DNA of 64,000 nucleotides from Felixounavirus NRG857CP1: the sequence record OZ035796.1. One strand, written 5' to 3'. A program made the position numbers and the translations under genes. The notes beneath the pieces are model-generated. The model was not told the origin of the DNA. It was given only the letters and a program-made list of their open reading frames with translations, and made no database searches. This document shows positions 18,776 to 58,767 of this stretch, in pieces (within the stretch, counting starts at the first letter, position 1; every line of letters starts with the position of its first letter).

Positions 18776-19822
18776 ATGGAGAAGTACACATTAACAAAAC
18801 TTCCCGATTCAGTTACACATGTTTTTATTGACTCTGACAGTATTGCCTATAAAGGTGCTTGTGTAGTTGAGAAAGCAAAATATAAATATGTCAATAAACT
18901 CACAGCAGAAGAATCTGAACCATTTGATAATGCGAAAGATGCTGCAAGATGGTTAGCAGACCAGAGAATCCTTGTGGAAGAACTTGGCCTGACATTTGAT
19001 GAAGATGAATGGGAAAGACAGACTTGGAAAGAAGCTAAGAGTGAAAAAGAAGCTATCATGGCTACTCAACAGGTTCTTCAGGAATGGCTTAAGGTTGTTG
19101 GTAAAGAGAGAACTTGGGTAGGTTACTTAACAGAGAAAGGTGTGCATAAACATAAAGACATTAAAGGTCTTGAGCACCAATATCAAGGTAACCGTAAAGA
19201 TGCTGTCACACCAACACACTTAGTTGCTTGTCGTGAATATCTTCTGTCAAGACCAGAGTTCAAACTCTTAAGGGGAGGCTTCGAAGCCGATTCAATCGTA
19301 ATTGCTAAAGCTGAAAAGATGGGTAAGAAAGCTGCTCTTATGAGTATTGACAAAGACCTTCGACAAGCTGAAGGGACTTATTGTATTGATATGACTTATG
19401 AAAAATCACCACTAATTTTTATCGCTGATAATAATGTTGGTAATATCTGGGATTGCCCTATCAAATCAAAACCAAAAGCTGCAAAAACAGTTGGTGTAGG
19501 TTTTAAATTCTTGTGTTATCAGGCTGTTGCTGGAGATAATGCAGACAACTACTTCGGCCTAAAAGGTGCTGGTAAAGTAGCTGTGATGAATGCTTTAGAG
19601 GGTAAAGAGACCTACAAAGAGTGTCTTGACGCTATCTATGAACTTTATGCTAAAAAAGACTCTTATACCTATGTGTCATGGGATGGACAGACCGTTACAA
19701 AGACGCCGTTAGAGTTAATGGAACAGCATTTCTTCCTAGCTTATCAAGAGCGAAATAAATCAGATATTTTTTCATTTGAAAAGTATGGTTGGACTCCAAA
19801 TGTTGACTCAGCAGATACTTAA
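18776..19822 (+). CDS. 5'-3' exonuclease (T7 gene 6-like)
   Basis: Conserved blocks MSIDKDL and GDNADNYFGLKGAG match the T7 gp6 ISCDKDF / GDITDGYSGIAGWG blocks as recalled; GGAGAG Shine-Dalgarno. Confidence 0.7.
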   Translation: MEKYTLTKLPDSVTHVFIDSDSIAYKGACVVEKAKYKYVNKLTAEESEPFDNAKDAARWLADQRILVEELGLTFDEDEWERQTWKEAKSEKEAIMATQQVLQEWLKVVGKERTWVGYLTEKGVHKHKDIKGLEHQYQGNRKDAVTPTHLVACREYLLSRPEFKLLRGGFEADSIVIAKAEKMGKKAALMSIDKDLRQAEGTYCIDMTYEKSPLIFIADNNVGNIWDCPIKSKPKAAKTVGVGFKFLCYQAVAGDNADNYFGLKGAGKVAVMNALEGKETYKECLDAIYELYAKKDSYTYVSWDGQTVTKTPLELMEQHFFLAYQERNKSDIFSFEKYGWTPNVDSADT

Positions 19823-20300
19823 AGAATATCTACACTATGACCCCGAAACAGGGGTCTTTACGTGGATAAAGAAATCAGCTAAAAGAACAGTTATAGGTTC
19901 CATTGCAGGTACACCACATAAGCGAGGTTATATTAGGATAAAAATTAAAAGAAAACCCTATATGGCTCATGATTTAGCAATCCTGTACACAGACGGTTTC
20001 CTACCTAACAGAGTAGACCATCGAAATGGTATTACTAATGATAATCGGAGATTAAATCTAAGGGTTTGCACACAAGCTGAAAACTCTTGGAATAGAAGAA
20101 CACACTCCAACAACACATCTGGAGTTAAGGGTGTATCTTTCTATAAGGCTAACCAAAAATGGAAGGCCAGAGTTATGACACACGGAGTATCTCACTTTCT
20201 GGGGTATTTTGACAGTATTGAAGATGCCAAAGATGCAGTCACAAAGAAAAGAGAAGAACTACATAAAGAGTTTTCAAATCACGGAGAAGCTTATGAATGA
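19785..20300 (+). CDS. HNH homing endonuclease with AP2-like domain
   Basis: Paralog of the 9685-10197 protein (LKEYLHYDPETGVFTW, VDHRNGITNDNR-LNLRVCTQAEN, AP2-like C-terminus); start ATG uncertain (19785 or 19800). Confidence 0.7.
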   Translation: MVGLQMLTQQILKEYLHYDPETGVFTWIKKSAKRTVIGSIAGTPHKRGYIRIKIKRKPYMAHDLAILYTDGFLPNRVDHRNGITNDNRRLNLRVCTQAENSWNRRTHSNNTSGVKGVSFYKANQKWKARVMTHGVSHFLGYFDSIEDAKDAVTKKREELHKEFSNHGEAYE

Positions 20301-20794
20301 AGATTAAAGGATTTGGCAATTGCCCTACCTACGGTCATTGGGTATCTTTATGTGGGGAAGTTGACCCCACTAAACATTTTGGCTTTGTCTATTTAGTGCA
20401 CTGTAAGAAGACTGGACAATATTATATCGGAAAGAAACAGTTTAACAGTGTGACCAAAAGAAAAGTTGCTGGGAAGACTCGGAAGAAGATAGTCACTAAG
20501 GAAAGTGATTGGATGACTTATGAGACTTCTTCTGAGTATATTAAAAAAGATATTGAGAGTTTTGGAAAAGAATTTTTTGACTTTTACATTATTCAGACCT
20601 ACTACACAAAAGGTGGCCTAGTCTATGGTGAAGCAAACCTTCAACATAAATTCGATGTAATGACAAAAAGGATTGACTCTAAGCTCAGACTCTTCTACAA
20701 TGCCAATATTGCAGCAATTAAGTTTATCACTAAAGAAACTTATGAAGATGCTGAAAAAAGAATCCATAAGGTAATGAAAGCAAATTGTGCTTGA
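20297..20794 (+). CDS. GIY-YIG family endonuclease-like protein
   Basis: FVYLVHCKKTGQYYIGK matches the GIY-x(10)-YIG motif; 165 aa. Confidence 0.6.
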   Translation: MKIKGFGNCPTYGHWVSLCGEVDPTKHFGFVYLVHCKKTGQYYIGKKQFNSVTKRKVAGKTRKKIVTKESDWMTYETSSEYIKKDIESFGKEFFDFYIIQTYYTKGGLVYGEANLQHKFDVMTKRIDSKLRLFYNANIAAIKFITKETYEDAEKRIHKVMKANCA

Positions 20795-26580: not shown

Positions 26581-28725
26581 ATGAACAAAGTACAGATTAT
26601 TAAAAAGAATGGCTCACTTGAAGAACCTGATATCAAAAAAGTTTTAGCAGCAGTCACAAAATCAGCTAACAGAGTTGGTTATAAAGAGCTTCCACCAGAT
26701 GTTACTCAAGCTCTTGAGTCAGCATTTATGAGGATTCTGGTAAAGTCCACTAAGCAGAATAATTTGCTAATTTCGGTAAATGATATTCACAGTATTGTTG
26801 AGGGTGCTTTGGCAGAAGTCAATCACGAGATTTATGAGTCTTACTCAACATATAGAAATTACCGTAAAGAAGTTGCTCAAAATTGGGATGAACTCTACCA
26901 GAAGACTAAAGATACACTCTTCTTAGGTGACCGTGAAAATGCTAACTTTGACAGTAGTTTAATTTCTACAAAAGGTTCAATTATTCGTGGTTATCTGACT
27001 AAAGAAATCTTTAAACAGTACCATTTAACACCAGAGGAACTGGAAGCCATTGAAAAAGGATTTATCTATATCCATGATTTAAGAGACCTGATTTTTGGTG
27101 GTATCAACTGTTGCCTGTTTGACATTGGTAAAGTCCTGAAAGGTGGCTTTGAAATGTCTGGCATCGAATATTGTGAACCAAAGTCTGTGCTGTCGGCCTT
27201 ACAGGTTATTGGTGACGTAGTTCTTTCAGCAACTGCACAACAATTTGGTGGCTTTACTTTAGCAGAGATTGATAAGGTACTTGTACCGTATGCTAAGAAG
27301 TCTCTACGCTATCATGCTGAGAAAGCAGCATCTTATGGTATTCCTAAAGAACATTACCACAATTATGTCATGGAGCAGCTACAGATTGAACTGACTCAAG
27401 GTTTCCAGTCACTTGAAATGAAACTAAACACTGTACCTTGTAGCCGTGGGGATTTTGCATTCACAACTTTGACATTCGGGTTACTTGACTCAGATATGTC
27501 CAATGAAGATAACCGACTGCAATATATGATTGCAAGTACCCTCCTAGATGTTCGTATGAATGGTCAAGGTAAGAGCAAGAAACCTGTTGTATTCCCTAAA
27601 CTGGTTTATATTTATGACCAGAAGAGACATGATGAAAATATCTGTCAAAGTCACCTGTACAGTAAAGCTATTGAGTGTTGCTCTAAAGCAATGTATCCAG
27701 ACTTCTTAAGTGTATCTGGTCATGGTGCTGTAGCAGAGGCTTTTGAGCGTTCTGGCAAGGTTATTTCGCCGATGGGTTGCCGAGCGTTCTTATCTCCGTA
27801 TCTTAACGAGAATGGGGAAGAGTTCTACGTTGGTCGTGCTAACATTGGTGCTGTATCTTTGAACTTACCAATGATTTACCAGTATTCTAAAGAGAATGGT
27901 TTAGATTTCTGGAAAGAGCTTGATAAGTACCTAGAGATGATTCGTAGTTTCCACAAGAAACGTTACGAAATGATTGCTAATATGCCAGCAAGTTCTAACC
28001 CTCTTGCATTTACACAAGGTGGTCTGTACAAAGGAACTAAGAAGCCTACTGACAAGGTTGGTTGGGATATTGTGAAGTCCTTCACAGCTTCTTTTGGTGT
28101 TACTGCGCTTGATGAGCTATCTGTTCTTGCTGAAGGTAAACGACTTCATGAAGTTGGAAGCTGTAGTTTTGCATACGATGTTCTGGCATACATCAACATG
28201 AAAACTGAAGAGTTTAAAAATGAAGATGGCTTCTTATATGCCGTCTATGGTACTCCAGCAGAATCACTTTGCGGAACTCAGTTAAAACAGTTCAGAGATA
28301 TGTTTGGCGTTATCAAAGGTGTTTCTGATAAGGAATACTTTACAAACAGTTTCCATATGAATGTTGCAGCAGACATCTCACCATTTAAGAAGCAGGACTT
28401 AGAAGAGCCATTCTTCCATATCTGTAGAGGTGGTAGAATCCAGTATGTCAGGGTAGCTAATCCAGAAAACTTAACAGCACTTAAAAGTTGTATTACCAGA
28501 GGGATGTTGAAAGGTTTCTATCAGGGGCTTAACTTTGACTTAGCAATCTGTGAACATTGTGGTAACAGACCAAAGGCTGATGTTGAAGAATGTGAGGTTT
28601 GTCATTCACACGATATCTCTGTGATTAACAGGGTGTGCGGGTACTTGTCATTCACAAAAATTAAAGGTCAGTCTCGAATGAATGACGCTAAGATGGCAGA
28701 AATTAAGGATAGGGTTTCTATGTAG
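26581..28725 (+). CDS. nrdD: anaerobic ribonucleoside-triphosphate reductase (class III)
   Basis: 714 aa; C-terminal glycyl-radical motif RVCGYLS preceded by a Cys cluster (CEHCG...CEVCH). Confidence 0.85.
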   Translation: MNKVQIIKKNGSLEEPDIKKVLAAVTKSANRVGYKELPPDVTQALESAFMRILVKSTKQNNLLISVNDIHSIVEGALAEVNHEIYESYSTYRNYRKEVAQNWDELYQKTKDTLFLGDRENANFDSSLISTKGSIIRGYLTKEIFKQYHLTPEELEAIEKGFIYIHDLRDLIFGGINCCLFDIGKVLKGGFEMSGIEYCEPKSVLSALQVIGDVVLSATAQQFGGFTLAEIDKVLVPYAKKSLRYHAEKAASYGIPKEHYHNYVMEQLQIELTQGFQSLEMKLNTVPCSRGDFAFTTLTFGLLDSDMSNEDNRLQYMIASTLLDVRMNGQGKSKKPVVFPKLVYIYDQKRHDENICQSHLYSKAIECCSKAMYPDFLSVSGHGAVAEAFERSGKVISPMGCRAFLSPYLNENGEEFYVGRANIGAVSLNLPMIYQYSKENGLDFWKELDKYLEMIRSFHKKRYEMIANMPASSNPLAFTQGGLYKGTKKPTDKVGWDIVKSFTASFGVTALDELSVLAEGKRLHEVGSCSFAYDVLAYINMKTEEFKNEDGFLYAVYGTPAESLCGTQLKQFRDMFGVIKGVSDKEYFTNSFHMNVAADISPFKKQDLEEPFFHICRGGRIQYVRVANPENLTALKSCITRGMLKGFYQGLNFDLAICEHCGNRPKADVEECEVCHSHDISVINRVCGYLSFTKIKGQSRMNDAKMAEIKDRVSM

Positions 28726-28732
28726 AATACAA

Positions 28733-29296
28733 ATGAATTACGAACTAATATATAATGCAATTATTAAAAAGGCACATTCTGAAAGGGGTGTGCCTCTCAC
28801 ATACTACAAATGTCAAGGTAAGGGTTATGAAAGACACCATATCATACCAGTATGTCTAGGTGGCGATAAAATTAGTGGAGATAACATTGCTTTACTTACA
28901 CCTAGAGAGCATTATATAGCTCATAAATTACTGGTTAAGATGTATCCAAACAATCATAAGTTATGGTTTGCATGGAGCAGGTTAGCTCATGATGGCCTAG
29001 ATAGGAAAATATCATCCAGAGACTATGAAAAGGTAAGGGCTTTAAACTCGAAAGCTCTATCGATTGTGAATAAAGGTAGGGTTTTCACTGAAGAGCATCG
29101 AAGACGATTAGGAGAAGCTCAAATAGGTAATACAAAGTCAAAAGGTTGTAAAAGGTCTATGGAAACAAGGAAGAAGATGTCAGAAGCCGGAAAAAAGCCA
29201 AAGAAAAAGAAAACTTGCCCGCATTGTGGCATGACTGGTGGTGCTGGTAACATGACTCGATATCATTTTGACAATTGTAAGAAAAAAAAAAAATAA
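28733..29296 (+). CDS. HNH homing endonuclease
   Basis: HHIIPVCLGG...N HNH core and a NUMOD-like FTEEHRRRLGEAQIGN segment; K-rich C-terminus; inserted between nrdD and nrdG. Confidence 0.7.
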   Translation: MNYELIYNAIIKKAHSERGVPLTYYKCQGKGYERHHIIPVCLGGDKISGDNIALLTPREHYIAHKLLVKMYPNNHKLWFAWSRLAHDGLDRKISSRDYEKVRALNSKALSIVNKGRVFTEEHRRRLGEAQIGNTKSKGCKRSMETRKKMSEAGKKPKKKKTCPHCGMTGGAGNMTRYHFDNCKKKKK

Positions 29297-31529: not shown

Positions 31530-31541
31530 ACAGATACTATA

Positions 31542-31567
31542 GGGGAACTGTAAAGGTTCCCTTTTTA
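31542..31567 (+). terminator. rho-independent terminator candidate
   Basis: GGGGAAC-loop-GTTCCC followed by TTTTT. Confidence 0.55.
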
Positions 31568-31580
31568 TTTTGGAGGTAAA

Positions 31581-32096
31581 ATGTATCTGTCAAACCTGAA
31601 ACGTTCGGTTGCAATGTCAGTTCTAAGACTCAGCTTTGATGAGCGTCAAGAATTTATAGACTCCCACAAATATGACCCTTCAAATTCTAATCACATGGTT
31701 CTTTGGAATCGTGATAACTTCCGTGAAAGAGCACTTGTCCGTTATTACCCACACTACACAATAGATAACCTGTATGAATGGTGTGTTGTGAAGAACACCA
31801 TTGCAACACTGAACAATCTTTGCAGGTATACGGGTAAGCAAACATTTACACTAGGCCACCACAAACCTGTTACAAAGGGTGGTGAGCATCACTGTGCAAA
31901 CTGGTTTATCCAGACTAAACTTGATAACCAGAAGCAAGGAGATAACCTTCTAAGCACACCTAAGATGACCTATGAAGAGCAAGAGAAATATATCAAAAAC
32001 AATATGCCAGATGTGCTTGACAACAACTATACAGATTTGGCAATATCTCTCCTGTTGAAGTTCGAGACAGTTTATAGGGCAACTTACAATGGCTAA
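31581..32096 (+). CDS. hypothetical protein
   Basis: 171-aa ORF; GGAGG Shine-Dalgarno. Confidence 0.5.
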   Translation: MYLSNLKRSVAMSVLRLSFDERQEFIDSHKYDPSNSNHMVLWNRDNFRERALVRYYPHYTIDNLYEWCVVKNTIATLNNLCRYTGKQTFTLGHHKPVTKGGEHHCANWFIQTKLDNQKQGDNLLSTPKMTYEEQEKYIKNNMPDVLDNNYTDLAISLLLKFETVYRATYNG

Positions 32097-32367
32097 AGAA
32101 AAGTGGGAGATTTTACCATTAGTCAGTGAAGGTGGTAATGGTTGTGAGATGTACATGATACGTGGTCATGTCCCAGAGCCAATTGCACTTGAGATGGTAA
32201 ACAACTTTACAGATGGTTCTTACAAAGACTTAGGCGAACCAACTGTCAAGCAACAATGGGTTAAACCTGTACCAGACAGCACAGGTAACTGTAGTGTACT
32301 TTATCACGTTGTAGACCCTGCAAAATGCAAATCTGCAATGGCAGTAACAAACGTAACTTTTGATTGA
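32089..32367 (+). CDS. hypothetical protein
   Basis: 92-aa ORF. Confidence 0.45.
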   Translation: MAKEKWEILPLVSEGGNGCEMYMIRGHVPEPIALEMVNNFTDGSYKDLGEPTVKQQWVKPVPDSTGNCSVLYHVVDPAKCKSAMAVTNVTFD

Positions 32368-32378
32368 GAGAGAAAACT

Positions 32379-33260
32379 ATGAAAACATCTATCCGTGTTA
32401 CAGTTCATTCACCAACTAAAGGGACTCATGAAGAAGAGTTTAACATCATCCAATTTCCTTCTGGTGAGATTGGTGGACACTTTTCGCCAGAGTTTGTTGA
32501 TTTCACTGCTTATGCAGCATCATCCATCAACAATGTGATTATGATTGTAAAAGGTTATGATAAGGACACATTGTTTGCTGTGGCACTTGCTAAAGAAGCA
32601 ATTGATGATTTAATTCCTCATGATTATGCTTTAAAGACTGTCATCTTTTACTACTTACCAAATGCACGATATGACCGTCACATGTTTAAAGGCGACGCAG
32701 CAGCTTTAAAGGTTTTTGCTAAACAGGTAAATGCAATGGGATTTGGTGCAGTCTGTGCAGTTGACCCTCACAGTTACGTTCCAGATAACCTGTTTAACTG
32801 CTTCCAGAGTATTCCTCAAAAGGAGATTGCAGTCCACTATGCAAATGACCCACTGGTTGATTACTTAGTAGCCCCAGATGCAGGTGCTGCTAAGAAGGTT
32901 GCAGAGACAGCTAAAGAGGTGGATAAACCATATATCACAATGTCTAAGGTGCGTAACCTTAAGACTGGTGAAATTACTGGTATGCGAATCCTTGATGATG
33001 TTGATTTGACAGATAAAACCGTCATGATTCTGGATGATATCTGTGATGGTGGTCGAACCTTCATAGAAGCAGCTAGACATCTTCGTGAAGCAGGTGCAAA
33101 ACGTGTGGAACTCTATGTAACACATGGTATCTTCTCTAAAGATGTTGAAAACCTTCTTGACAATGGCATTGACCACATCTACACTACAAACTCTTTAGGG
33201 GAAGCTAAAGACCGTGGCTTAACACATTATGGTCAAGTTACTGTAGCAAACCTTGATTAA
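32379..33260 (+). CDS. ribose-phosphate pyrophosphokinase-like enzyme (PRPP synthetase family)
   Basis: Phosphoribosyltransferase-type nucleotide-binding loop VMILDDICDGGRT; size and layout of Prs; immediately upstream of the NAMPT-like gene. Confidence 0.65.
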   Translation: MKTSIRVTVHSPTKGTHEEEFNIIQFPSGEIGGHFSPEFVDFTAYAASSINNVIMIVKGYDKDTLFAVALAKEAIDDLIPHDYALKTVIFYYLPNARYDRHMFKGDAAALKVFAKQVNAMGFGAVCAVDPHSYVPDNLFNCFQSIPQKEIAVHYANDPLVDYLVAPDAGAAKKVAETAKEVDKPYITMSKVRNLKTGEITGMRILDDVDLTDKTVMILDDICDGGRTFIEAARHLREAGAKRVELYVTHGIFSKDVENLLDNGIDHIYTTNSLGEAKDRGLTHYGQVTVANLD

Positions 33261-33269
33261 AACTTTATA

Positions 33270-33290
33270 GGGGCTTAAAAGCCCCATTTT
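33270..33290 (+). terminator. hairpin, weak terminator or processing site candidate
   Basis: GGGGCT-taaaa-GCCCC followed by ATTTT. Confidence 0.4.
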
Positions 33291-33305
33291 GAGAGAGATT
33301 AAAAG

Positions 33306-35087
33306 ATGACTAAATCACTTTATGCAGTACCAGCAGGTTTAAACGCAGATGCTTACAAATCTGGTCACATTTACCAGTATCCTAGTGCAACAGAATACTT
33401 GATGTTCAACCTGACACCACGTAGTGATAAATGGTTTAACAGCCCTTTAGCAATTGACGGTGTAGTGGCTTTTGGTATTCAACGTTTTGTTAAAGATTAC
33501 TTGATAGACCACTGGAATGCCACTTTCTTTGAACGTGATAAAAAAGAAGCCATTGATGAAATCTTAGAAGTCATGAATGGTGTTCTGGGTAAAGATGCTA
33601 TCGGTCGAGAGCATTGGGAAGCACTTCACGACTTAGGTTATCTACCAGTTGAAGTATACGCTGTAGAAGAAGGCACAGTTGTTCCAATGCGTGTCCCGAT
33701 GATTGTCTTTCAGAACACTGTTTCAGGTTTTCATTGGGTAGCAGGTTATCTGGAAGATGCTTTCTCTGCTGAAATTTGGAAGGCTTGCACCATTGCAACT
33801 ATTGCATTGCATTACAAACGCATCTGTAAGAAGTGGGCTGAACTTACTTGTGACAATGACTTACATTTACCTTATCAGTGCCATGATTTTGCTATGCGTG
33901 GTATGTCCGGCTTTACTGATGACGCATTTAACGCTGTAGGCCACTTAACCAGCTTTAAAGGAACTGATAGCTTCCCTGCTGTGTATACGGCTAAACGAAT
34001 CTATGGACAGCCTTACCCAATCTCTGATATTGGTAGCTCTGTACCAGCCACTGAGCACTCTGTAATGTGTGCAAACATTGCTTGGGAAGGTGGTAATGAG
34101 TTGATTGAAGAAGAAAGACGCTTTAAAGGTGAGTTACAAACCTTCCGTCGCTTCTTAACAGAAACTTACCCAACTGGTATTGCAAGTGTTGTTTCAGACA
34201 CTTATAACTTCTGGAGAACTGTGTCAGAAATTTTACCAGCACTTCGTAAAGAAATTATGGAACGTGATGGCAAACTGGTAATTCGTCCTGACTCTGGAGA
34301 CCCTGTACATATTGTCACAGGTTATAAAGCAATCCACTTAGAATGTGCTAAGAAGGCTTATTATGAACATCTTAGCAAGCTGGAAGCTAGTGATACAATG
34401 CTAAGCTCTGTCCTGAACATGAAGCTTGAAAACATCAACTATGGTATTGCTGGATGGCTACTGTCAGAAGGCTACGAAATGGTTGTTGACAGAGAAGACT
34501 TTGAAGTTGCTGATACAGTGATGTTGAAAAATGCTTATATGGTTGGTTCTGCAAACGTTGTAACACGTCCTATAGCTGAGATTGATGGAGCTATTAAGAC
34601 TCTGTATAACATCTTTGGAGGAACTATTAACTCTAAAGGTTTTAAGGTACTTGATGAGCACATTGGCCTTATCTATGGCGACTCTATCACGTTGGAACGT
34701 GCAAACGAAATCCTGAAGCGTCTGTATGAAATGGGTTTTGCAAGCTCTAACGTAGTTTTTGGTGTAGGTTCTTACACTTATCAGTACATGACTCGTGACA
34801 CCTTTGCATTTGCTGTTAAAGCAACTCTTGCAAGCATCGGTGGTAAAGAGATTATGCTTGCAAAAGACCCTAAAACAGATAGTGGTGTTAAGAAATCTGC
34901 CTTTGGTGGTGTAGCACCTATGTGGGATGGTGATAAGCTGAAAGCTGTAGATGGCTACGGATTCCAGAGTTTTGCAGATGTACTTGACCACCCAGCTTGT
35001 GCTTTACGTTTAGTCTTTAGTGACTCTGAGCAGTTTGGTTACACAACTCTTGGTGATATTCGAAATAATATTGACAAGCAGCTTTAA
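33306..35087 (+). CDS. nicotinamide phosphoribosyltransferase-like enzyme (NAMPT/NadV family)
   Basis: 593 aa; N-terminal region (Y-A-V-P-A...D-A-Y-K-S-G-H-I-Y-Q-Y-P) resembles NAMPT family N-termini as recalled; paired with the Prs-like gene. Confidence 0.6.
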   Translation: MTKSLYAVPAGLNADAYKSGHIYQYPSATEYLMFNLTPRSDKWFNSPLAIDGVVAFGIQRFVKDYLIDHWNATFFERDKKEAIDEILEVMNGVLGKDAIGREHWEALHDLGYLPVEVYAVEEGTVVPMRVPMIVFQNTVSGFHWVAGYLEDAFSAEIWKACTIATIALHYKRICKKWAELTCDNDLHLPYQCHDFAMRGMSGFTDDAFNAVGHLTSFKGTDSFPAVYTAKRIYGQPYPISDIGSSVPATEHSVMCANIAWEGGNELIEEERRFKGELQTFRRFLTETYPTGIASVVSDTYNFWRTVSEILPALRKEIMERDGKLVIRPDSGDPVHIVTGYKAIHLECAKKAYYEHLSKLEASDTMLSSVLNMKLENINYGIAGWLLSEGYEMVVDREDFEVADTVMLKNAYMVGSANVVTRPIAEIDGAIKTLYNIFGGTINSKGFKVLDEHIGLIYGDSITLERANEILKRLYEMGFASSNVVFGVGSYTYQYMTRDTFAFAVKATLASIGGKEIMLAKDPKTDSGVKKSAFGGVAPMWDGDKLKAVDGYGFQSFADVLDHPACALRLVFSDSEQFGYTTLGDIRNNIDKQL

Positions 35088-35102
35088 AAGTATATGATAA
35101 GA

Positions 35103-35125
35103 GGCTCCTACGGGAGCCTTTTTAA
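35103..35125 (+). terminator. rho-independent terminator candidate
   Basis: GGCTCC-tacg-GGAGCC followed by TTTTT. Confidence 0.6.
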
Positions 35126-35140
35126 TTTCTGGAGAAAACT

Positions 35141-35476
35141 ATGAAAATCAAAGAGATGAACATCAACATTGTCTTAGAAGAACGTTGGGAGAACATCAAG
35201 AAGCCTGAAGATGGTCATAAGTTCCTTAACAAAATCTTGGTAGCAGCTAAAGAAGAACTGACTGGCAAGGTCGCAGCAGCAATCACAATAAAGGTCTGCG
35301 TAAAAGGTCTTCCGCAACATCACCAATTTGCACTTGACGAGTTTAAAGAGAGCTTCTACAATCCAAACAAACAGATGCTTGAAAGTAACTTTGCAGTGTC
35401 TACAAGTATTGTCCATGACAGAAGCTTTATCCTTTACAAGAATATGAGAGGTGAGTCATGCAAGCATATTGGATAG
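35141..35476 (+). CDS. hypothetical protein
   Basis: 111-aa ORF. Confidence 0.5.
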   Translation: MKIKEMNINIVLEERWENIKKPEDGHKFLNKILVAAKEELTGKVAAAITIKVCVKGLPQHHQFALDEFKESFYNPNKQMLESNFAVSTSIVHDRSFILYKNMRGESCKHIG

Positions 35477-42568: not shown

Positions 42569-43354
42569 ATGGGTATTGTAAAAATCATCAATGGTGATAT
42601 CTTTGCTGCATTTGATAAAGGTAAGTTTGACATCATTGGTCATGGTTGTAACTGCATGAACCTAATGGGCGCAGGTATCGCTGACAAGATTTCTAAACTT
42701 TACCCAAAAGCATATGAGACCGATACAGAAGTTTATCTCTATGCAGGTGGTATAGGTCACAAACCCTGTGAGAATTTACTAGGTAATTTCTCTGTAGCAC
42801 GCTTAAAACAAGGTCGTATAGCTAACCTTTACACTCAGCTTAAGACTGGTAAAGATGCCCGATACAGTGCTTTAGAGTCATCTTTGAAACAGCTTAACAG
42901 ATACTGTGAAGTCAATCAGTTGAAGAAAGTTGGTTTACCTATGATTGGTGTAGGTATCGGTGGACTTGACCCTCAAGCCGTCACAGTTATCATCAATCAG
43001 GTGATGAAGAGTGTAGATGTTTATCTATATGTCTATGAAGGAGAGATGTACCACAAGTTACTCTCAGGTTGGAAGAACTACTGTGAACCAGAATACTTTG
43101 CAGGTGTAGCAGTGTTCACAGATAACGCAGTTACCCTCTTCAGACGAAGAAAAGGTAAGATACATCAAAGTAACCCTCCGGTTGAAAAGATGTCTCTAAG
43201 TAACGCTCTAGTTACCCACCTGTCAAAGAGCAATCACAGAATTGCTGTAACATTTGGTAGTGATGCAGAAGCTTATATCTATGCAAGAACTGATGAGGAT
43301 ATTGAGGCAATCTTCTCTTCACCAGAAGTTACCTTCTTAGACGCAAAGAACTAA
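42569..43354 (+). CDS. macro-domain protein (ADP-ribose binding/hydrolase family)
   Basis: N-terminal IINGDIF...FDIIGHGCNCMNLMGAGIADKI resembles the macro-domain VQGDIT...NAAN...GGGGV-GAIH region as recalled; 261 aa with extra C-terminal region. Confidence 0.55.
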   Translation: MGIVKIINGDIFAAFDKGKFDIIGHGCNCMNLMGAGIADKISKLYPKAYETDTEVYLYAGGIGHKPCENLLGNFSVARLKQGRIANLYTQLKTGKDARYSALESSLKQLNRYCEVNQLKKVGLPMIGVGIGGLDPQAVTVIINQVMKSVDVYLYVYEGEMYHKLLSGWKNYCEPEYFAGVAVFTDNAVTLFRRRKGKIHQSNPPVEKMSLSNALVTHLSKSNHRIAVTFGSDAEAYIYARTDEDIEAIFSSPEVTFLDAKN

Positions 43355-52946: not shown

Positions 52947-53411
52947 TTACTTTGGGTATACACTGTCAAGATAAATGTCAGCTTCCATTCTACGTCTGTT
53001 TTTCAGACCGTTTGAAGTGACCTTCTTACCCTTAACTGTAACCTTGTTCCACCACTGCATAGCTTCTGCACAACCTACCTTATTACCAGCATTGTGTCGC
53101 TTGATAAATGTAGAATCCTGCATAGCTGTGATACCGATGTTGTATGTTTCACTTACAAGTGCATCGAACTCATTCTGAGAAGTTGGAACCTTGATAGCTT
53201 TATTCACTGCTGCAACGAACTTCTCAACATCTGCAAGAAGATACTGTTCAGCTTGTTCGGCAGTAATTTTCATACCCATCTTAACAGGTTTTCCGTCAAT
53301 ACGGATTGTACCATACCCGATTGTCGGGATTCCGGCAGAGTCTTCGTAAGCCTCTAACTTCAGACCTTCAAAGAACTTAATAGCTTCTAGACCTTTTCTT
53401 GAGAGTTGCAT
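52947..53411 (-). CDS. endolysin, T4-type lysozyme (GH24-like)
   Basis: FEGLKLEAYEDSAGIPTIGYG matches the catalytic E...D...T region of T4 lysozyme ([21 protein letters not shown]) as recalled. Confidence 0.8.
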   Translation of the reverse strand: MQLSRKGLEAIKFFEGLKLEAYEDSAGIPTIGYGTIRIDGKPVKMGMKITAEQAEQYLLADVEKFVAAVNKAIKVPTSQNEFDALVSETYNIGITAMQDSTFIKRHNAGNKVGCAEAMQWWNKVTVKGKKVTSNGLKNRRRMEADIYLDSVYPK

Positions 53412-54292
53412 TATGCCTCCCCTGCTGGGTTAACTGTAACCGTTGCTGCATTAGATGTTACAGAGCCACCTGCGCCAGTAACTACACAGGTGTAGCTTCC
53501 TGCATCAGCAGTGGTTGCACCTTCTTTGGTGTAAGTTGCAGCAGTTGCATCGAGGATGTCTTCCTCACCTTTCTTCCATTGGTAACCTGTCGCACCTGTT
53601 GCCACAACATTCAGCGTTAAGGTCTCACCTTCAGTGATTTCTTGATTGGTTGGCTGTTGAGTGATAACTGGTAAAGCTTTCACAGTAACGGTTGCAGGGC
53701 TAGAAGTGACAGAACCACCTGCACCTGTTACAACGCAAGTGTATGAACCAGCATCAGAAGGTGCTACAGACTGTTTTGTGTAGGTTGCAGATGTGGCGCT
53801 AGTGATATTCTCACCATCCTTTTTCCATTGATATCCAGTGGCATTAGTTGCAATAATGCTTAGGGTAAGTGTACCACCTTCATTTACTGTTTGATTGGTT
53901 GGTTGCTGAGTAATTGATGGTGGCTTGATAGCATCCTTCAACTTAGCATTCAACATTGAGAATGGTTTAACTCTTGCCAACCATTCACAATAAACTGTAT
54001 CAACGTCTTTACCATTGATAATTGCATATTGTAAGTCCATGAAGAAGTCAGAGGTTCTCATTTGAGCACCAATGCTGTAAAGCAACTCATCACTAAATGG
54101 AACTTTGTAGTCTGGTTTGTAGTCAAACTCATCGACTTCTGCAATATCAGCTTCAGGCCAATACGAACTGTAGGTAAGCGGTAAAATAGCCTCTTGATAT
54201 GTTCTAAAATCATATCTCTTACCAGCCTTTACGTTTGCAATGAAGCCCTTCACAAACTCTTTGAAGTCTGGGTAAGTCTTTGCTTTAATCAT
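53411..54292 (-). CDS. protein with two tandem Ig-like domains
   Basis: Two ~88-aa repeats (ITQQPTNQ...GYQWKK...AGSYTCVVTGAGGSVTS...ATVTV) with Ig-type W and Y-x-C positions; N-terminal ~120 aa paralogous to the next gene. Confidence 0.6.
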   Translation of the reverse strand: MIKAKTYPDFKEFVKGFIANVKAGKRYDFRTYQEAILPLTYSSYWPEADIAEVDEFDYKPDYKVPFSDELLYSIGAQMRTSDFFMDLQYAIINGKDVDTVYCEWLARVKPFSMLNAKLKDAIKPPSITQQPTNQTVNEGGTLTLSIIATNATGYQWKKDGENITSATSATYTKQSVAPSDAGSYTCVVTGAGGSVTSSPATVTVKALPVITQQPTNQEITEGETLTLNVVATGATGYQWKKGEEDILDATAATYTKEGATTADAGSYTCVVTGAGGSVTSNAATVTVNPAGEA

Positions 54293-56371: not shown

Positions 56372-57787
56372 ATGAGCGAGTTATTTAAACATGCGCACCT
56401 TCATGCAGGTCGAACTGAAAATGGTGCTGTAAACCATACTTCATCAATGTCTGCTCTGGTAGACTTCTACAAAGCCGCTGGCTCAAGCCGTAGCAATGTA
56501 GAAATCTTACCAGACCTGTTCTACAAAGCTTTGCGTGAGGATGTTGATGTTGCAGTTCGTATTTTACTGCATATGCGAGATGTACGAGAAGGCATGGGTG
56601 AGCGTAAAGCTTTCCGAACTGTTTTACTTCAAGCGATTGAAGATAAAGTTTTAGAACCTACACAGGTTCTTCGCATTATGGATAAGATTGCAGAACTTGG
56701 TCGTTTTGATGACTTCAAAATCTTCGTAGGTACTCGTTTCGAGACAGATGCCTTCAAACATTTAGAAGCAGCATTACTAGACCCTGCAACAGCAGGTTTA
56801 GCAGCTAAGTGGTTGCCACGAGTAAAACCACGCCACAAACAGTTTGTAAAACGTTTCTGTAAATTTGCAAACTTAAGCGAGAAGGAGTATCGCACACTGT
56901 TATCTGCACTGTCTGATACGGTTGAGCAAAAAATCTCTGCTAATGAGTTTGGTAAGATTGACTACAGCAAGATTCCTTCACTCGCTGCTGCACGTTACCA
57001 AAAACTCTTTAACCGTAAAGATGGAGAACGTTACAAAGCTTACATCGAATCACTCTCAAAGGGTGAGGCTAAGATTAACGCTGGTGCTGTTTACCCATAT
57101 GATGTGATTAAATCTATCAAGCATGGTAATGCAGATGTTGCTAATGAGCAGTGGAAAGCACTACCAAACTGGATGGCAGAAGGTGAGAACATCTTATGTA
57201 TGACTGATGTCTCAAGTTCAATGTCTTTGGTGAACTTTGGTTCAATTACTGCCCTTGATATTGGTGTATCACTTGCCTTGTATGTAGCAGAACGCAATAC
57301 AGGTTGCTTTAAAGATGAGTTAATGGTCTATTCAACAAACCCTCATTTCATTGAACTGAGTGGTGATTTACGAAACCGTCATCGTCAGGTAATGCGTCAT
57401 GTTGAATATGGTTCAACTAACTTACAAGCAGCTTTTGACCGTATTCTTGAAATAGGTAAGAGAAACAACTTGACTCAGAAAGATATGCCAAGTAAGCTTA
57501 TCATCTTCTCTGATATGGAGTTCAATCAGGTTGATGGTGCAAATGGTCGTACAAACTTTGAAGCAATTCAGAGTAAGTACAAAAAAGCTGGATACGAAAT
57601 GCCACAACTAGTATTCTGGTACTTAGCAAACCGTAATGGTACTTGCGAAGTATCTGTTAAGGATAATGGTGTAGCAATGGTATCAGGGTTCTCTCCAGCC
57701 ACTTTAAAAGCTCTGCTTGGTGGTGAGAAGTTTGACCCAATCAGCGTAATGCTCAAAGCAGTAATGATTGACCGTTACATCTGGTAA
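56372..57787 (+). CDS. vWA-domain protein with N-terminal helical domain (possible Ro60/TROVE-like architecture)
   Basis: 471 aa; C-terminal vWA fold with MIDAS-type DxSxS (MTDVSSSM), later STNLQ and LIIFSDMEF elements; the N-terminal ~270 aa was not assignable by eye. Confidence 0.5.
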   Translation: MSELFKHAHLHAGRTENGAVNHTSSMSALVDFYKAAGSSRSNVEILPDLFYKALREDVDVAVRILLHMRDVREGMGERKAFRTVLLQAIEDKVLEPTQVLRIMDKIAELGRFDDFKIFVGTRFETDAFKHLEAALLDPATAGLAAKWLPRVKPRHKQFVKRFCKFANLSEKEYRTLLSALSDTVEQKISANEFGKIDYSKIPSLAAARYQKLFNRKDGERYKAYIESLSKGEAKINAGAVYPYDVIKSIKHGNADVANEQWKALPNWMAEGENILCMTDVSSSMSLVNFGSITALDIGVSLALYVAERNTGCFKDELMVYSTNPHFIELSGDLRNRHRQVMRHVEYGSTNLQAAFDRILEIGKRNNLTQKDMPSKLIIFSDMEFNQVDGANGRTNFEAIQSKYKKAGYEMPQLVFWYLANRNGTCEVSVKDNGVAMVSGFSPATLKALLGGEKFDPISVMLKAVMIDRYIW

Positions 57788-57952: not shown

Positions 57953-58029
57953 CTCTGTTTAGCTCAGCTTGGTAGAGCGTTCCGTTTGGGGCGGTAAGGC
58001 CGGAGGTTCAAGTCCTCCAACAGAGACCA
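57953..58029 (+). tRNA. tRNA-Pro (anticodon TGG)
   Basis: Hand-folded cloverleaf: 7-bp acceptor CTCTGTT/AACAGAG, D-arm GCTC/GAGC, anticodon loop TTTGGGG, T-arm GGAGG-TTCAAGT-CCTCC, encoded CCA. Confidence 0.7.
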
Positions 58030-58036
58030 AATTAAT

Positions 58037-58114
58037 GTTCCAGTAGACAAAACGGTAAAGTCACCACTCTTTCAAAGTGGATATTTGAGGGTTCAAATCC
58101 CTTCTGGAACGCCA
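58037..58114 (+). tRNA. tRNA-Glu (anticodon TTC)
   Basis: Acceptor GTTCCAG/CTGGAAC, anticodon stem CCACT/AGTGG with loop CTTTCAA, T-loop TTCAAAT, CCA. Confidence 0.7.
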
Positions 58115-58121
58115 GTTTTGA

Positions 58122-58194
58122 CAGAAGACCAATTACAGCAAACTTAATCTTATTCATCTGAAGCTAAATCGGACAAAGAAGAGATTTGGTCTGG
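58122..58194 (+). ncRNA. conserved stem element A1 (CAGAAGACCA...TGGTCTGG)
   Basis: 20-nt conserved 5' box CAGAAGACCAATTACAGCAA and downstream complementary TGGTCTGG; member of a 4-copy family with covarying stem bases. Confidence 0.4.
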
Positions 58195-58206
58195 TCATTA
58201 AGAATT

Positions 58207-58281
58207 GCGGGTATAGAGAAAGGGCGTCTCACATGTCTCATTAGCATGGTATCGGCAGGTTCGACTCCTGCACCCGCCTCC
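58207..58281 (+). tRNA. tRNA with CAT anticodon (Met or Ile2)
   Basis: Anticodon stem CATGT/GCATG with loop CTCATTA; T-arm GCAGG-TTCGACT-CCTGC; acceptor GCGGGT/ACCCGC. Confidence 0.6.
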
Positions 58282-58288
58282 AATTTTG

Positions 58289-58348
58289 CAGAAGACCGTA
58301 TGCAGCAATAAACTACTTTTTGCGGATAAAAGAAAAAACACGGTCTGG
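58289..58348 (+). ncRNA. conserved stem element A2 (CAGAAGACCG...CGGTCTGG)
   Basis: Same 5' box with A-to-G change matched by T-to-C in the 3' partner (covariation). Confidence 0.4.
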
Positions 58349-58359
58349 CAATGTATTAA

Positions 58360-58436
58360 GGTTAGGAAGCACATAAGGTATGTGCGGTCGCCTGTTAAGC
58401 GAATGGCACAGGGTTCGAATCCCTGACTAACCGCCA
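58360..58436 (+). tRNA. tRNA-Asn (anticodon GTT)
   Basis: Acceptor GGTTAGG/ACTAACC, D-stem GCAC/GTGC, anticodon loop CTGTTAA, T-arm CAGGG-TTCGAAT-CCCTG, CCA. Confidence 0.65.
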
Positions 58437-58445
58437 AATTTAAAT

Positions 58446-58533
58446 GTGTCGTTATCCCGTAGATGGTAGCGGTGGGGACTGTAAATCCCTTGTCATTGAG
58501 ACTCGGTAGGTTCGACTCCTACACGGCACACCA
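58446..58533 (+). tRNA. tRNA-Tyr (anticodon GTA), long variable arm
   Basis: 88 nt; acceptor GTGTCGT/ACGGCAC; anticodon stem GGGGA/TCCCT with loop CTGTAAA; long variable arm; T-loop TTCGACT; CCA. Confidence 0.7.
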
Positions 58534-58539
58534 AATAAA

Positions 58540-58616: not shown

Positions 58617-58677
58617 ATTTTGAGAGGGCTATTTAGCTCCTCCCTTAAAGAGTTCTTACGAGTATTCTTTAAAGGAG

Positions 58678-58754: not shown

Positions 58755-58767
58755 CTCAACAAATTTA

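What the first reader, a model, noticed from the sequence alone, without database searches (positions are those of the whole stretch)
32379..35087. Adjacent PRPP-synthetase-like and NAMPT-like genes: candidate NAD+ reconstitution (anti-defense) pair
A ribose-phosphate pyrophosphokinase-family enzyme is encoded immediately upstream of a nicotinamide phosphoribosyltransferase-family enzyme. Phage-encoded pairs of this kind have been reported to rebuild NAD+ and so counter NAD+-depleting host defenses, either as classical salvage or via the ADPR-pyrophosphate route. Which chemistry this pair uses cannot be told by eye. The NAMPT-like protein is 593 aa, which seems long for the family from memory.
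Basis: partly seen in the sequence, partly recalled or inferred. Interest (0 to 1): 0.7.

Follow-up and report, generated by a model that had tools for sequence, protein, structure and literature searches.

The report
Known phage NAD+ rebuilding gene pair
These two adjacent phage genes are near-copies of the gene pair in which the NARP1 pathway was discovered, which rebuilds NAD+ from ADP-ribose and nicotinamide after bacterial defences destroy it, so the finding is correct but already explained.

Summary
Window 32379-33260 encodes a 293-aa PRPP-synthetase-like protein. After a 45-nt gap, 33306-35087 encodes a 593-aa NAMPT-like protein.

The window is a Felixounavirus (100% identical to NRG857CP1). 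The pair is the positional ortholog of genes 79-80 of Felixounavirus Bas63, the operon in which NARP1 (Adps + Namat) was discovered. The NAMPT-like protein is 98% identical to Bas63 gp80 and the Prs-like protein 78% identical to gp79. Lengths and neighbours are the same.

- The Prs-like protein keeps the Adps catalytic lysine, acceptor residues, DDICDG PP loop and C-terminal truncation.
- The NAMPT-like protein keeps the catalytic core and the Namat-specific motif GSYTYQYMTRD.
- Its best structural match is the Namat crystal structure.

The "long" length is real. It comes mainly from a confidently folded ~88-aa subdomain inserted after the catalytic Arg/Asp strand. Bas63 and related phages share it, and it has no detectable sequence or fold relatives.

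A side lead: a Macro-domain protein 7.5 kb downstream is distantly homologous to the operon-encoded ADPR-1''-P phosphatase of NARP1-AP phages.

Verdict: already known; low interest.

The parts
31541..31563 (+). Terminator-like hairpin that probably marks the upstream end of the transcription unit. The unit holds two small unknown ORFs (31581-32096 and 32089-32367) and the gene pair.
   Evidence: Consensus scan. This is a pattern match only; function is not shown.
32379..33260 (+). Adps (ADP-ribose pyrophosphate synthetase), a PRPP-synthetase-like enzyme of 293 aa.
   Evidence: 78% identical over the full length, without gaps, to Bas63 gp79. 115-116 bits to ICP1 Adps and Quinn gp174 against 61.6 bits to E. 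coli Prs.
32934..32960 (+). Adps catalytic beta-hairpin segment ITMSKVRNL. It contains Lys190, equivalent to ICP1 Adps Lys185 and SpbetaL1 Lys162.
   Evidence: Alignment mapping. The role of the lysine comes from PMC13586617 and the 2024 preprint.
33033..33062 (+). Adps-type PP loop DDICDGGRTF. Canonical E. coli Prs has DDMIDTGGTL here.
   Evidence: DD[IL]CD is present in every Adps-like homolog aligned.
33270..33285 (+). GC-rich stem-loop GGGGCTTAAAAGCCCC followed by ATTTTG, in the 45-nt gap between the two genes. Possibly a leaky terminator or an mRNA-stabilising element.
   Evidence: Fold of -12.6 kcal/mol, z = -3.36. The stem is identical in Bas63 with one loop change. Function is inferred.
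33306..35087 (+). Namat (nicotinamide ADP-ribose transferase), a NAMPT-like enzyme of 593 aa.
   Evidence: 98% identical to Bas63 gp80. AF2 model has pLDDT 93.5. Best structural matches are the Namat crystal structures 9w5x/9w5w, target TM 0.95.
33417..33455 (+). Namat selectivity-clamp loop (SCL) PRSDKWFNSPLAI, with Lys42-Trp43 at the adenine-stacking position.
   Evidence: The sequence is identical to Bas63. The rule for Lys/Tyr followed by the stacking residue is from PMC12774641.
34044..34064 (+). PATEHSV motif with the conserved catalytic histidine (His251).
   Evidence: The motif is nearly invariant across the 37 aligned homologs, with A, T, E, H and V invariant.
34323..34586 (+). Lineage-specific ~88-aa alpha/beta subdomain (aa 340-427). 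It is inserted between the catalytic RPDSGDP strand and the next helix, and is the main reason the protein is 593 aa.
34767..34799 (+). Namat selectivity-clamp helix motif (SCH) GSYTYQYMTRD. It fits the published Namat signature GSX-phi-X-phi-X-phi-TRD, with aromatic residues at the X positions.
   Evidence: The motif definition is from PMC12774641. Nampts have GAQTYQRNTRD (HdNadV) and GGALLQKVDRD (Xanthomonas).
35099..35122 (+). Terminator-like hairpin (10-bp stem followed by a T run), 12 nt after the Namat stop codon.
   Evidence: sequence.
42569..43354 (+). Unlinked Macro-domain protein (261 aa: a Macro domain of about 1-156 plus an unknown ~100-aa C-terminal extension). It is a possible accessory enzyme acting on ADP-ribose derivatives. 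A link to the pair is NOT shown.
   Evidence: Pfam Macro, E 3.7e-7. 97% identical to bas63_0095, annotated 'putative phosphatase'. 28% identity, E 5e-14, end to end with Vibrio phage Quinn gp175, which lies between Adps and Namat.

Best explanation
The pair is a NARP1 operon (NAD+ reconstitution pathway 1).

When a bacterial defence system such as SIR2-HerA, DSR1/2, type I Thoeris or SEFIR cleaves NAD+ into ADP-ribose and nicotinamide, two steps follow:
1. The first enzyme (Adps, 32379-33260) transfers the beta-gamma pyrophosphate of ATP onto the terminal ribose of ADP-ribose, giving ADPR-pyrophosphate and AMP.
2. The second enzyme (Namat, 33306-35087) displaces that pyrophosphate with nicotinamide and so regenerates NAD+ directly.

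This uses no NMN intermediate and no host salvage enzymes. The phage thereby restores the NAD+ pool and escapes abortive infection.

Shown here: orthology, gene order, and conservation of catalytic and specificity residues. Shown by others in the sister phage Bas63 and with SpbetaL1 and ICP1 enzymes: the chemistry and the anti-defence phenotype. Inferred: that this window's proteins do the same.
For: (1) The window is a Felixounavirus, 100% identical to OZ035806.1. Bas63, in which NARP1 was discovered, is also a Felixounavirus and has the same synteny: NrdG ... two small ORFs - gene 79 - gene 80 ... rIIA - rIIB.

(2) Protein identity to Bas63 is 78% for gp79 and 98% for gp80. Both are full length without gaps.

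(3) Published Bas63 data:
- Deleting genes 79-80 gives about 20-fold fewer plaques on SIR2-HerA cells and deeper NAD+ depletion.
- The rescue is independent of host pncC and nadR.
- ADPR-PP (m/z 720.010) is seen only in defended cells infected by the wild type.

(4) Adps-specific features are present:
- Catalytic Lys190.
- Acceptor residues R97, H131, D167, D219, D220 and D223.
- The PP loop DDICDGGRTF, with DD[IL]CD in all aligned Adps-like homologs, against DDMIDTGGT in E. coli Prs.
- A C-terminus about 20 aa shorter than Prs.
- It scores below every NCBIfam Prs equivalog cutoff.
- It scores 115-116 bits to ICP1 Adps and Quinn gp174 against 61.6 bits to E. coli Prs.

(5) Namat-specific features are present:
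- All mapped SpbetaL1 ligand-contact residues are conserved or conservatively replaced.
- The SCH motif is GSYTYQYMTRD and the SCL is K42-W43, as in Bas63.
- The top structural hits are the Namat crystal structures, ahead of HdNadV and human NAMPT.

(6) No NMN adenylyltransferase, Nudix or NadR-like domain was found in 28 window ORFs scanned with Pfam. None is annotated in Bas63 in the stretches read (record positions 1-68000 of 87100).
Against: - No biochemistry exists for this exact allele of Adps. Its N-terminal two-thirds differs substantially from Bas63 gp79 (57-87% aa identity per 30-aa block).
- Bas63 Adps itself was never purified; the in vitro work used SpbetaL1 and ICP1 enzymes at about 36% identity.
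- The two aromatic residues that stack the ADPR adenine in ICP1 Adps (Phe18', Phe92) align to His17 and Met102 here and in Bas63. That part of the alignment is uncertain.
- Namat enzymes can also make NMN from PRPP in vitro, so some classical activity is not excluded.
- I built no formal phylogeny separating the Adps and Prs clades.
- The role of the 88-aa Namat insert is unknown.
Confidence: 0.93

Rival explanations
1. Classical salvage. The first enzyme is a true PRPP synthetase that makes PRPP from ribose-5-phosphate. The second is a true Nampt that makes NMN. Host or phage NMN adenylyltransferase then converts NMN to NAD+ (a NARP2-like logic).
For: Generic Pfam, PHROG and NCBIfam names say Prs and Nampt/NAPRTase. 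Almost all deposited annotations use those names. Namat can produce NMN from PRPP in vitro.
Against: - The orthologous Bas63 operon works in a pncC/nadR double-deletion host and produces ADPR-PP.
- The Prs-like protein fails all Prs equivalog cutoffs and has the Adps PP loop and C-terminal truncation.
- The NAMPT-like protein has the aromatic SCH motif that Nampts lack.
- No NMNAT, Nudix or NadR-like gene was found.
Confidence: 0.04
2. Nucleotide-supply genes. The pair boosts PRPP and pyridine nucleotide pools for phage DNA replication in general, as part of the neighbouring nucleotide-metabolism block (Nrd genes, thymidylate synthase, DHFR), with no role in immunity.
For: The pair sits just downstream of nrdA/B/D/G in a nucleotide-metabolism region.
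Against: In the 2024 study, the ADPR-PP product of the orthologous operon appears only when the defence system is present, and the deletion phenotype was reported on defended cells compared with controls. The specificity motifs point to ADPR-derived substrates.
Confidence: 0.02
3. Extended pathway in trans (an addition to NARP1, not an alternative). The unlinked Macro-domain protein at 42569-43354 acts as an ADPR-1''-phosphate phosphatase (Adpp). It would feed ADPR to Adps, so the phage effectively runs NARP1-AP and can also resist aRES-type NAD+ cleavage.
For: - Its Macro domain aligns end to end with Quinn gp175 (28% identity, E 5e-14), which lies between Adps and Namat in a Thalassavirus, the genus of phage Gary in which Adpp was characterised.
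- The gene is conserved about 7 kb downstream of the pair in Bas63 and in a distant Yersinia phage.
- The published Adpp survey looked only within two genes of NARP1.
Against: - The window protein is closer (33-35% identity) to Macro proteins of T-even-like phages. Macro homologs occur in 2839 phage records against 1259 with Adps, so the family is not tied to NARP1.
- Its best solved relatives are OARD1/TARG1-type deacylases; Poa1p-type phosphatases match only marginally.
- The conserved position may simply reflect synteny.
- It has an extra ~100-aa C-terminal part of unknown function.
Confidence: 0.2

Closest known systems
NARP1 operon of Escherichia phage JohannRWettstein (Bas63), genes bas63_0079 (Adps) and bas63_0080 (Namat); Osterman et al., bioRxiv 10.1101/2024.02.11.579819
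   Same: Same genus, gene order, gene lengths (293 and 593 aa), neighbours and intergenic hairpin. Namat is 98% identical, including the 88-aa insert, the SCL and the SCH. All mapped Adps active-site residues are identical.
   Different: Adps is only 78% identical. The 5' two-thirds of the gene is a mosaic block at 61-79% nt identity, with dS near saturation and dN/dS about 0.13, between flanks at 91-98%. The window carries the commoner of two Felixounavirus alleles. Bas63 has an extra 345-nt gene (bas63_0081) just after Namat that the window lacks.
SpbetaL1 Namat (crystal structures 9w5w and 9w5x; PMC12774641)
   Same: Same fold (target TM 0.95), catalytic core, SCH motif type and ligand-contact residues.
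   Different: SpbetaL1 Namat is 491 aa. It lacks the ~88-aa subdomain (aa 340-427) and the ~15-aa insertion after the catalytic His. Its SCL uses Arg40, where the window has Lys42-Trp43. About 38% identity by structural alignment.
Vibrio phage ICP1 Adps (structures described in PMC13586617)
   Same: PRPS-like two-domain enzyme of about 280-293 aa. It shares the catalytic Lys on the beta-hairpin, the acceptor Arg/His/Asp residues, the DDICDG PP loop and the loss of the C-terminal alpha11-alpha12 module.
   Different: About 36% identity. PP-loop tail is GGRT against GAAS. The ICP1 adenine-stacking Phe18 and Phe92 align to His17 and Met102. The lid residue Phe223 aligns to Glu230.
NARP1-AP (Adps-Adpp-Namat) of Thalassavirus phages Gary and Quinn; bioRxiv 10.64898/2026.01.28.702374
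   Same: Homologous Adps and Namat. The genome also encodes a homologous Macro domain.
   Different: In the window, no gene lies between Adps and Namat (45-nt gap). The Macro gene is 7.5 kb away, roughly 15 genes (as counted in Bas63), and has an extra C-terminal extension.
Canonical class I PRPP synthetase (E. coli Prs) and canonical Nampt (H. ducreyi NadV 9ke8, Xanthomonas 7yqo, human NAMPT); NARP2 of KVP40
   Same: Same superfamily folds and shared core catalytic residues.
   Different: Prs side: different PP loop, missing C-terminal regulatory/filament module, scores below the equivalog cutoffs. Nampt side: aromatic adenine clamp present, and no NMNAT partner found.

Membership tests
NARP1: Adps | Catalytic lysine on the beta-hairpin (ICP1 Lys185, SpbetaL1 Lys162) | tested here: met
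   Lys190 in ITMSKVRNL, identical in Bas63. A K-x-R pattern appears in the commonest hairpin variants of the aligned homologs.
NARP1: Adps | Conserved acceptor-site residues (ICP1 Arg87, His121, Asp161, Asp212, Asp213, Asp216) | tested here: met
   R97, H131, D167, D219, D220 and D223.
NARP1: Adps | Remodelled PP loop used for ATP donor binding, conserved across Adps homologs | tested here: met
   DDICDGGRTF. DD[IL]CD is in all aligned Adps-like homologs, against DDMIDTGGT in E. coli Prs.
NARP1: Adps | Loss of the C-terminal alpha11-alpha12 module of PRPS | tested here: met
   293 aa. There are 24 residues after alignment position 270, against 44 in E. coli Prs. The homolog median length is 286 aa.
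NARP1: Adps | Aromatic stacking of the ADPR adenine (ICP1 Phe18' and Phe92) | tested here: inconclusive
   These align to His17 and Met102 here and in Bas63. The N-terminal alignment to ICP1 is weak.
NARP1: Adps | Belongs to the Adps clade rather than the Prs clade | tested here: met
   115-116 bits to ICP1 Adps and Quinn gp174 against 61.6 bits to E. coli Prs. Below all Prs equivalog cutoffs. No formal tree was built.
NARP1: Namat | Nampt-like catalytic core (SpbetaL1 D13', Y15', F189, R192, D215, catalytic His, R306, D308, G360-D361) | tested here: met
   D15, Y17, F195, R198, D221, H251, R327, D329, G458 and D459.
NARP1: Namat | SCH signature GSX-phi-X-phi-X-phi-TRD with aromatic X residues that clamp adenine | tested here: met
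   GSYTYQYMTRD at aa 488-498. Nampts lack the aromatic residues.
NARP1: Namat | SCL loop that supplies a stacking residue (Arg at position 3, or Lys/Tyr followed by the stacking residue) | tested here: met
   S40-D41-K42-W43, identical to Bas63, which the paper cites as its example of the Lys/Tyr class.
NARP1: operon | adps immediately next to namat on a phage genome | tested here: met
   45-nt gap, same strand, bracketed by terminator-like hairpins.
NARP1: activity | ADPR + ATP gives ADPR-PP; ADPR-PP + nicotinamide gives NAD+; rescue from NAD+-depleting defence | not testable with these tools
   Shown in vivo for the Bas63 ortholog and in vitro for SpbetaL1 and ICP1 enzymes.
Canonical PRPP synthetase (Prs) | Reaches the NCBIfam equivalog score cutoffs for ribose-phosphate diphosphokinase | tested here: not met
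   Scores of 39-104 bits against cutoffs of 296-536. Only the broad TIGR01251 subfamily model passes, at 121.9 against 113.
Canonical PRPP synthetase (Prs) | DDMIDTGGT-type PP loop and the C-terminal regulatory/filament helices | tested here: not met
NARP2 (Nampt + bifunctional Nmnat/Nudix) | An NMN adenylyltransferase partner in the genome, and a Nampt-type (non-aromatic) SCH-equivalent | tested here: not met
   No such domain in the 28 ORFs scanned, and the SCH is aromatic. Only 64 of about 87 kb of the genome is in the window.
NARP1-AP | A Macro-domain ADPR-1''-P phosphatase (Adpp) within the NARP1 operon (within two genes) | tested here: not met
   No ORF lies between or beside the pair with a Macro domain. 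A homologous Macro gene lies 7.5 kb downstream.
NARP3 (PnuC-like transporter + NadR-like enzyme) | PnuC and NadR-like domains | tested here: not met
   The pair has Prs and NAPRTase-family domains only. The NARP3 definition is from PMC13464706.

The most novel reading that the evidence does not exclude
Two residual features are not covered by the papers I could search.

(a) The Namat of Felixounavirus-like phages carries a confidently folded ~88-aa subdomain with no sequence or fold relatives. It is inserted straight after the catalytic Arg/Asp strand. It could be a lid, a regulatory element or an Adps-docking element that modifies how NARP1 works in this lineage.

(b) The unlinked but syntenically conserved Macro-domain protein could act as an Adpp in trans. 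That would make these phages functionally NARP1-AP, and so resistant to aRES, even though surveys restricted to the operon count them as plain NARP1.

The probability given is for at least one of these being functionally true.
Probability: 0.25. Interest if true: 0.45.

Novelty: already known. Interest (0 to 1): 0.2.

Why it matters
The pair is a clean and correctly spotted example of phage counter-defence by metabolite reconstitution. However, it is essentially the published founding example, in a sister phage of the same genus.

Its practical value is for annotation. About 250 Felixounavirus records still label these genes 'ribose-phosphate pyrophosphokinase' and 'nicotinamide/nicotinate phosphoribosyltransferase'. 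By orthology and motif conservation they should be read as Adps and Namat.

Two questions remain open and are cheap to test:
- What the lineage-specific Namat subdomain does.
- Whether the distal Macro protein extends the pathway to ADPR-1''-phosphate.

Neither changes the main verdict.

Tried and rejected
- Guessing the Bas63 accession took five wrong records before MZ501086 was found.
- Pfam on the insert alone gave only DUF4528 at E 0.056, 13.8 bits against a cutoff of 27. I rejected this as chance.
- The AlphaFold database library (afdb50) was not available.
- The insert profile search returned a 1880-aa protein at E 4e-22. That protein is built of about 15 near-identical repeats, each matched weakly (94.8 bits over 15 stretches). 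I rejected it as repeat-inflated.
- I considered positive selection as the cause of the Adps divergence from Bas63. I rejected it because dN/dS is about 0.13 with near-saturated dS in a sharply bounded block, which indicates recombinational allele replacement.
- I looked for the mutated Adpp residues to test on the window Macro protein. The paper's text does not give them.
- I could not place the insert relative to the active site or the dimer interface, because model coordinates are not exposed to the scripting tool.
- I did not build a Prs/Adps tree, because only one canonical Prs sequence was in hand.
Full report
**Observation**

Two same-strand ORFs occupy exactly the stated coordinates.
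- ORF A runs 32379-33260 and gives 293 aa from the ATG. The mechanical ORF list starts at an in-frame TTG at 32364. The preceding ORF's stop is at 32365-32367, and a GAGAGAG purine-rich motif sits just upstream of the ATG. Bas63 is annotated from the equivalent ATG.
- ORF B runs 33306-35087 and gives 593 aa.

ORF A matches PHROG 619 'ribose-phosphate pyrophosphokinase' (E 5e-96), Pfam Pribosyltran and Pribosyl_synth, and TIGR01251. ORF B matches PHROG 448 'nicotinamide phosphoribosyl transferase' (E 9e-202), Pfam NAPRTase and NAMPT_N, and NF006629.

**Genome and context**

The 3.5-kb region is 100% identical to Felixounavirus NRG857CP1. It is 90-97% identical to more than 200 Escherichia, Salmonella, Shigella and Citrobacter Felixounavirus records.

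Neighbouring genes fit that genus:
- nrdG upstream and rIIA/rIIB downstream.
- A 25-gene tRNA cluster at 57953-63585.

Terminator-like hairpins at 31541-31563 and 35099-35122 bracket a putative transcription unit. It holds two small ORFs of unknown function (31581-32096 and 32089-32367) plus the pair. These are pattern matches only.

A GC-rich stem-loop at 33270-33285 lies in the 45-nt gap between the two genes. It folds at -12.6 kcal/mol (z = -3.4), and its stem is identical in Bas63.

**Identity with the published system**

NARP1 was discovered in genes 79-80 of BASEL phage Bas63 (JohannRWettstein), another Felixounavirus (bioRxiv 10.1101/2024.02.11.579819). I located the record (MZ501086) and the genes. 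bas63_0079 and bas63_0080 have the same lengths as the window genes (882 and 1782 nt) and the same neighbours.
- ORF B is 98% identical to gp80 over all 593 residues.
- ORF A is 78% identical to gp79, full length and without gaps.

The published work on Bas63 reports the following:
- Deleting the operon lowers plating about 20-fold on SIR2-HerA cells and deepens NAD+ depletion.
- The rescue does not need host pncC or nadR.
- ADPR-pyrophosphate appears only in defended cells infected by the wild type.

In vitro chemistry was shown with SpbetaL1 enzymes and later with ICP1 Adps:
- ADPR + ATP gives ADPR-PP.
- ADPR-PP + nicotinamide gives NAD+, with a preference for ADPR-PP over PRPP.

**Which chemistry: the Prs-like enzyme**

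I mapped the ICP1 Adps structure residues (PMC13586617) onto the window protein.

| Feature | ICP1 Adps | Window protein |
|---|---|---|
| Catalytic lysine | Lys185 | Lys190 |
| Acceptor residues | R87, H121, D161, D212, D213, D216 | R97, H131, D167, D219, D220, D223 |

All of these are identical in Bas63 gp79.

Other Adps features are also present:
- The PP loop reads DDICDGGRTF. DD[IL]CD occurs in every aligned Adps-like homolog, whereas E. coli Prs has DDMIDTGGT.
- The protein ends about 20 residues before E. coli Prs. This matches the loss of the alpha11-alpha12 module, which the paper calls a family signature.
- It fails every NCBIfam Prs equivalog cutoff: 39-104 bits against cutoffs of 296-536.
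- It scores 115-116 bits against ICP1 Adps and Quinn gp174, compared with 61.6 bits against E. coli Prs.

One feature is not conserved. The ICP1 adenine-stacking Phe18' and Phe92 align to His17 and Met102, here and in Bas63. That part of the alignment is unreliable.

**Which chemistry: the NAMPT-like enzyme**

I used SpbetaL1 Namat crystal numbering, reconstructed from the PDB alignments. All ligand-contact residues are identical or conservatively replaced:
- D15, Y17, F195, R198, D221, H251, R327, D329, G458, D459, G488, S489, Y490, Y494, T496, R497 and D498.
- Ser190 becomes Ala196 and Ala362 becomes Ser460.

PMC12774641 defines the Namat signature as GSX-phi-X-phi-X-phi-TRD, with aromatic X residues that clamp the adenine. 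The sequences compare as follows:

| Protein | SCH motif |
|---|---|
| Window | GSYTYQYMTRD |
| H. ducreyi NadV (Nampt) | GAQTYQRNTRD |
| Xanthomonas Nampt | GGALLQKVDRD |

The variable SCL loop reads S-D-K42-W43, identical to Bas63. The paper cites Bas63 as its example of the Lys/Tyr class, in which the following residue stacks on adenine.

An AlphaFold2 model built on 37 sequences has mean pLDDT 93.5 and pTM 0.91. Its best Foldseek matches in the PDB are the Namat structures 9w5x and 9w5w (E about 1e-54, target TM 0.95). These rank ahead of HdNadV and human NAMPT.

No NMNAT, Nudix or NadR-like domain was found in 28 window ORFs scanned with Pfam. The pair therefore uses the ADPR-PP route (NARP1), not classical salvage.

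**Why the protein is 593 aa**

Relative to the 491-aa SpbetaL1 Namat, the window protein has:
- A ~15-aa insertion after the catalytic His motif, within aa 256-278.
- A ~88-aa insertion at aa 340-427, directly after the RPDSGDP strand that carries Arg327 and Asp329.

Both sites vary in length across the family: 7-46 aa at the first site and 19-101 aa at the second. The long form (582-610 aa) is shared by Bas63 and by relatives down to about 46% identity. These lie on phage contigs of roughly 70-92 kb and include Yersinia, Pectobacterium and Salmonella phages.

The large insert is predicted as a compact alpha/beta subdomain. pLDDT is about 94-96 within the full model and 91.8 when modelled alone with 18 homologous segments.

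The insert has no detectable relatives:
- No Pfam match.
- No Foldseek match in the viral structure library; the best E is 0.18.
- A profile of the insert finds only long-form Namats among 1.84 billion representative proteins, apart from one repeat-inflated artefact.

The Namat structure paper aligned and modelled Bas63 Namat, but its text does not discuss this insert.

Both insertion points immediately follow catalytic residues. I therefore infer that the inserts lie on the catalytic face of the barrel.

**Adps allele mosaic**

The lower identity of Adps to Bas63 is confined to a sharply bounded block at about 32331-32930. That block has 61-79% nt identity, while the flanks have 91-98%. Its synonymous sites are near saturation (dS about 1.8) and dN/dS is about 0.13. 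This pattern indicates recombinational replacement by a diverged allele under purifying selection, not adaptive change.

Phage records fall into two allele groups:
- About 154 records at 90% or more to the window.
- 94 records at 60-80%. The sampled members at 76-78% are Felixounavirus-like coliphages, and Bas63's allele (78%) falls in this band.

**Side lead: a Macro-domain protein**

ORF 42569-43354 (261 aa) has a Pfam Macro domain (E 3.7e-7). It is 97% identical to bas63_0095, annotated 'putative phosphatase'.

Evidence suggesting a link to NARP1:
- A 2026 preprint describes NARP1-AP, in which a Macro-domain ADPR-1''-phosphate phosphatase (Adpp) lies inside the NARP1 operon of 15% of NARP1 phages. 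This lets them resist aRES, which cleaves NAD+ to ADPR-1''-P.
- That survey considered only genes within two positions of NARP1.
- Vibrio phage Quinn belongs to Thalassavirus, the genus of phage Gary in which Adpp was characterised. Quinn has the Adps-Macro-Namat layout.
- Quinn's 158-aa Macro protein aligns end to end with the window protein's first 156 residues (28% identity, E 5e-14).
- A distant Yersinia phage keeps a 252-aa Macro gene at the same relative position.

Evidence against a dedicated link:
- The window protein is closer (33-35% identity) to Macro proteins of T-even-like phages.
- The family occurs in 2839 phage records, against 1259 with Adps.
- Its best solved relatives are OARD1/TARG1-type enzymes.

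I rate this a testable lead with about 0.2 probability, not a finding.

**Verdict**

The system is already known: it is essentially the founding NARP1 example in a sister phage. Interest is low. Two small open points remain, the function of the Namat insert and a possible Adpp acting in trans.

Noticed in passing
window 42569-43354 (+): A 261-aa protein with an N-terminal Macro domain and an unknown ~100-aa C-terminal extension. It is the ortholog of bas63_0095. It is distantly homologous (28% identity, E 5e-14) to the Macro protein that sits between Adps and Namat in Vibrio phage Quinn (the NARP1-AP layout). It is conserved at the same relative position in a distant Yersinia phage.
   Followed up: partly
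window 34323-34586 (aa 340-427 of the Namat-like protein): A confidently folded ~88-aa alpha/beta subdomain specific to Felixounavirus-like Namats. It has no sequence or fold relatives and is not discussed in the Namat structure paper.
   Followed up: yes
window ~32331-32930 versus Bas63 (L007 ~3199-3798): The 5' two-thirds of adps is a sharply bounded mosaic block (61-79% nt identity, dS about 1.8, dN/dS about 0.13) between flanks at 91-98%. Two Adps alleles circulate in Felixounaviruses.
   Followed up: yes
window 33270-33285: A conserved GC-rich stem-loop followed by ATTTTG in the adps-namat intergenic gap (z = -3.4; stem identical in Bas63). Both genes are preceded by the same TTGAGAGAGA motif.
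   Followed up: partly
window ~35135-35143 versus L007 6009-6353: Bas63 carries an extra 345-nt gene (bas63_0081) immediately downstream of namat that is absent from the window. Some other Felixounaviruses show the same ~350-bp indel (matches in two pieces).
   Followed up: no
window 31581-32096 and 32089-32367: Two overlapping small ORFs (PHROG 3500 with weak HNH-endonuclease similarity, and PHROG 4726) lie in the same putative transcription unit just upstream of adps. They are conserved in Bas63 as genes 77-78. Function unknown.
   Followed up: no
window 26581-29296: NrdD appears as one uninterrupted 714-aa ORF here, followed by a 204-aa ORF. In Bas63, nrdD is annotated as joined from two pieces around a homing-endonuclease gene. 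HNH and GIY-YIG endonuclease ORFs also sit at 19776-20794.
   Followed up: no
window 56372-57787 (+) and 53411-54292 (-): A 471-aa protein with DUF7788, DUF2828 and weak VWA-like domains, and a 293-aa protein with immunoglobulin-like domains. Both lie outside the finding.
   Followed up: no
window 57953-63585: A cluster of 25 tRNA genes on the + strand.
   Followed up: no
proteins P0072-P0114 and P0190-P0240: Short-form (~496 aa) Namat-like proteins with an aromatic SCH motif, and ~285-aa Adps-like proteins, occur on Mb-sized contigs of Klebsiella, Cronobacter, Kosakonia and related Enterobacteriaceae. This is consistent with the reported bacterial NARP1 homologs. Adjacency was not checked.
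   Followed up: no
L008 4353-5672 (Vibrio phage ICP1 record MW794165): The 439-aa ORF downstream of ICP1 adps is annotated as a hypothetical protein. It did not match my regular expression for the Namat SCH motif. Its relationship to Namat was not examined.
   Followed up: no
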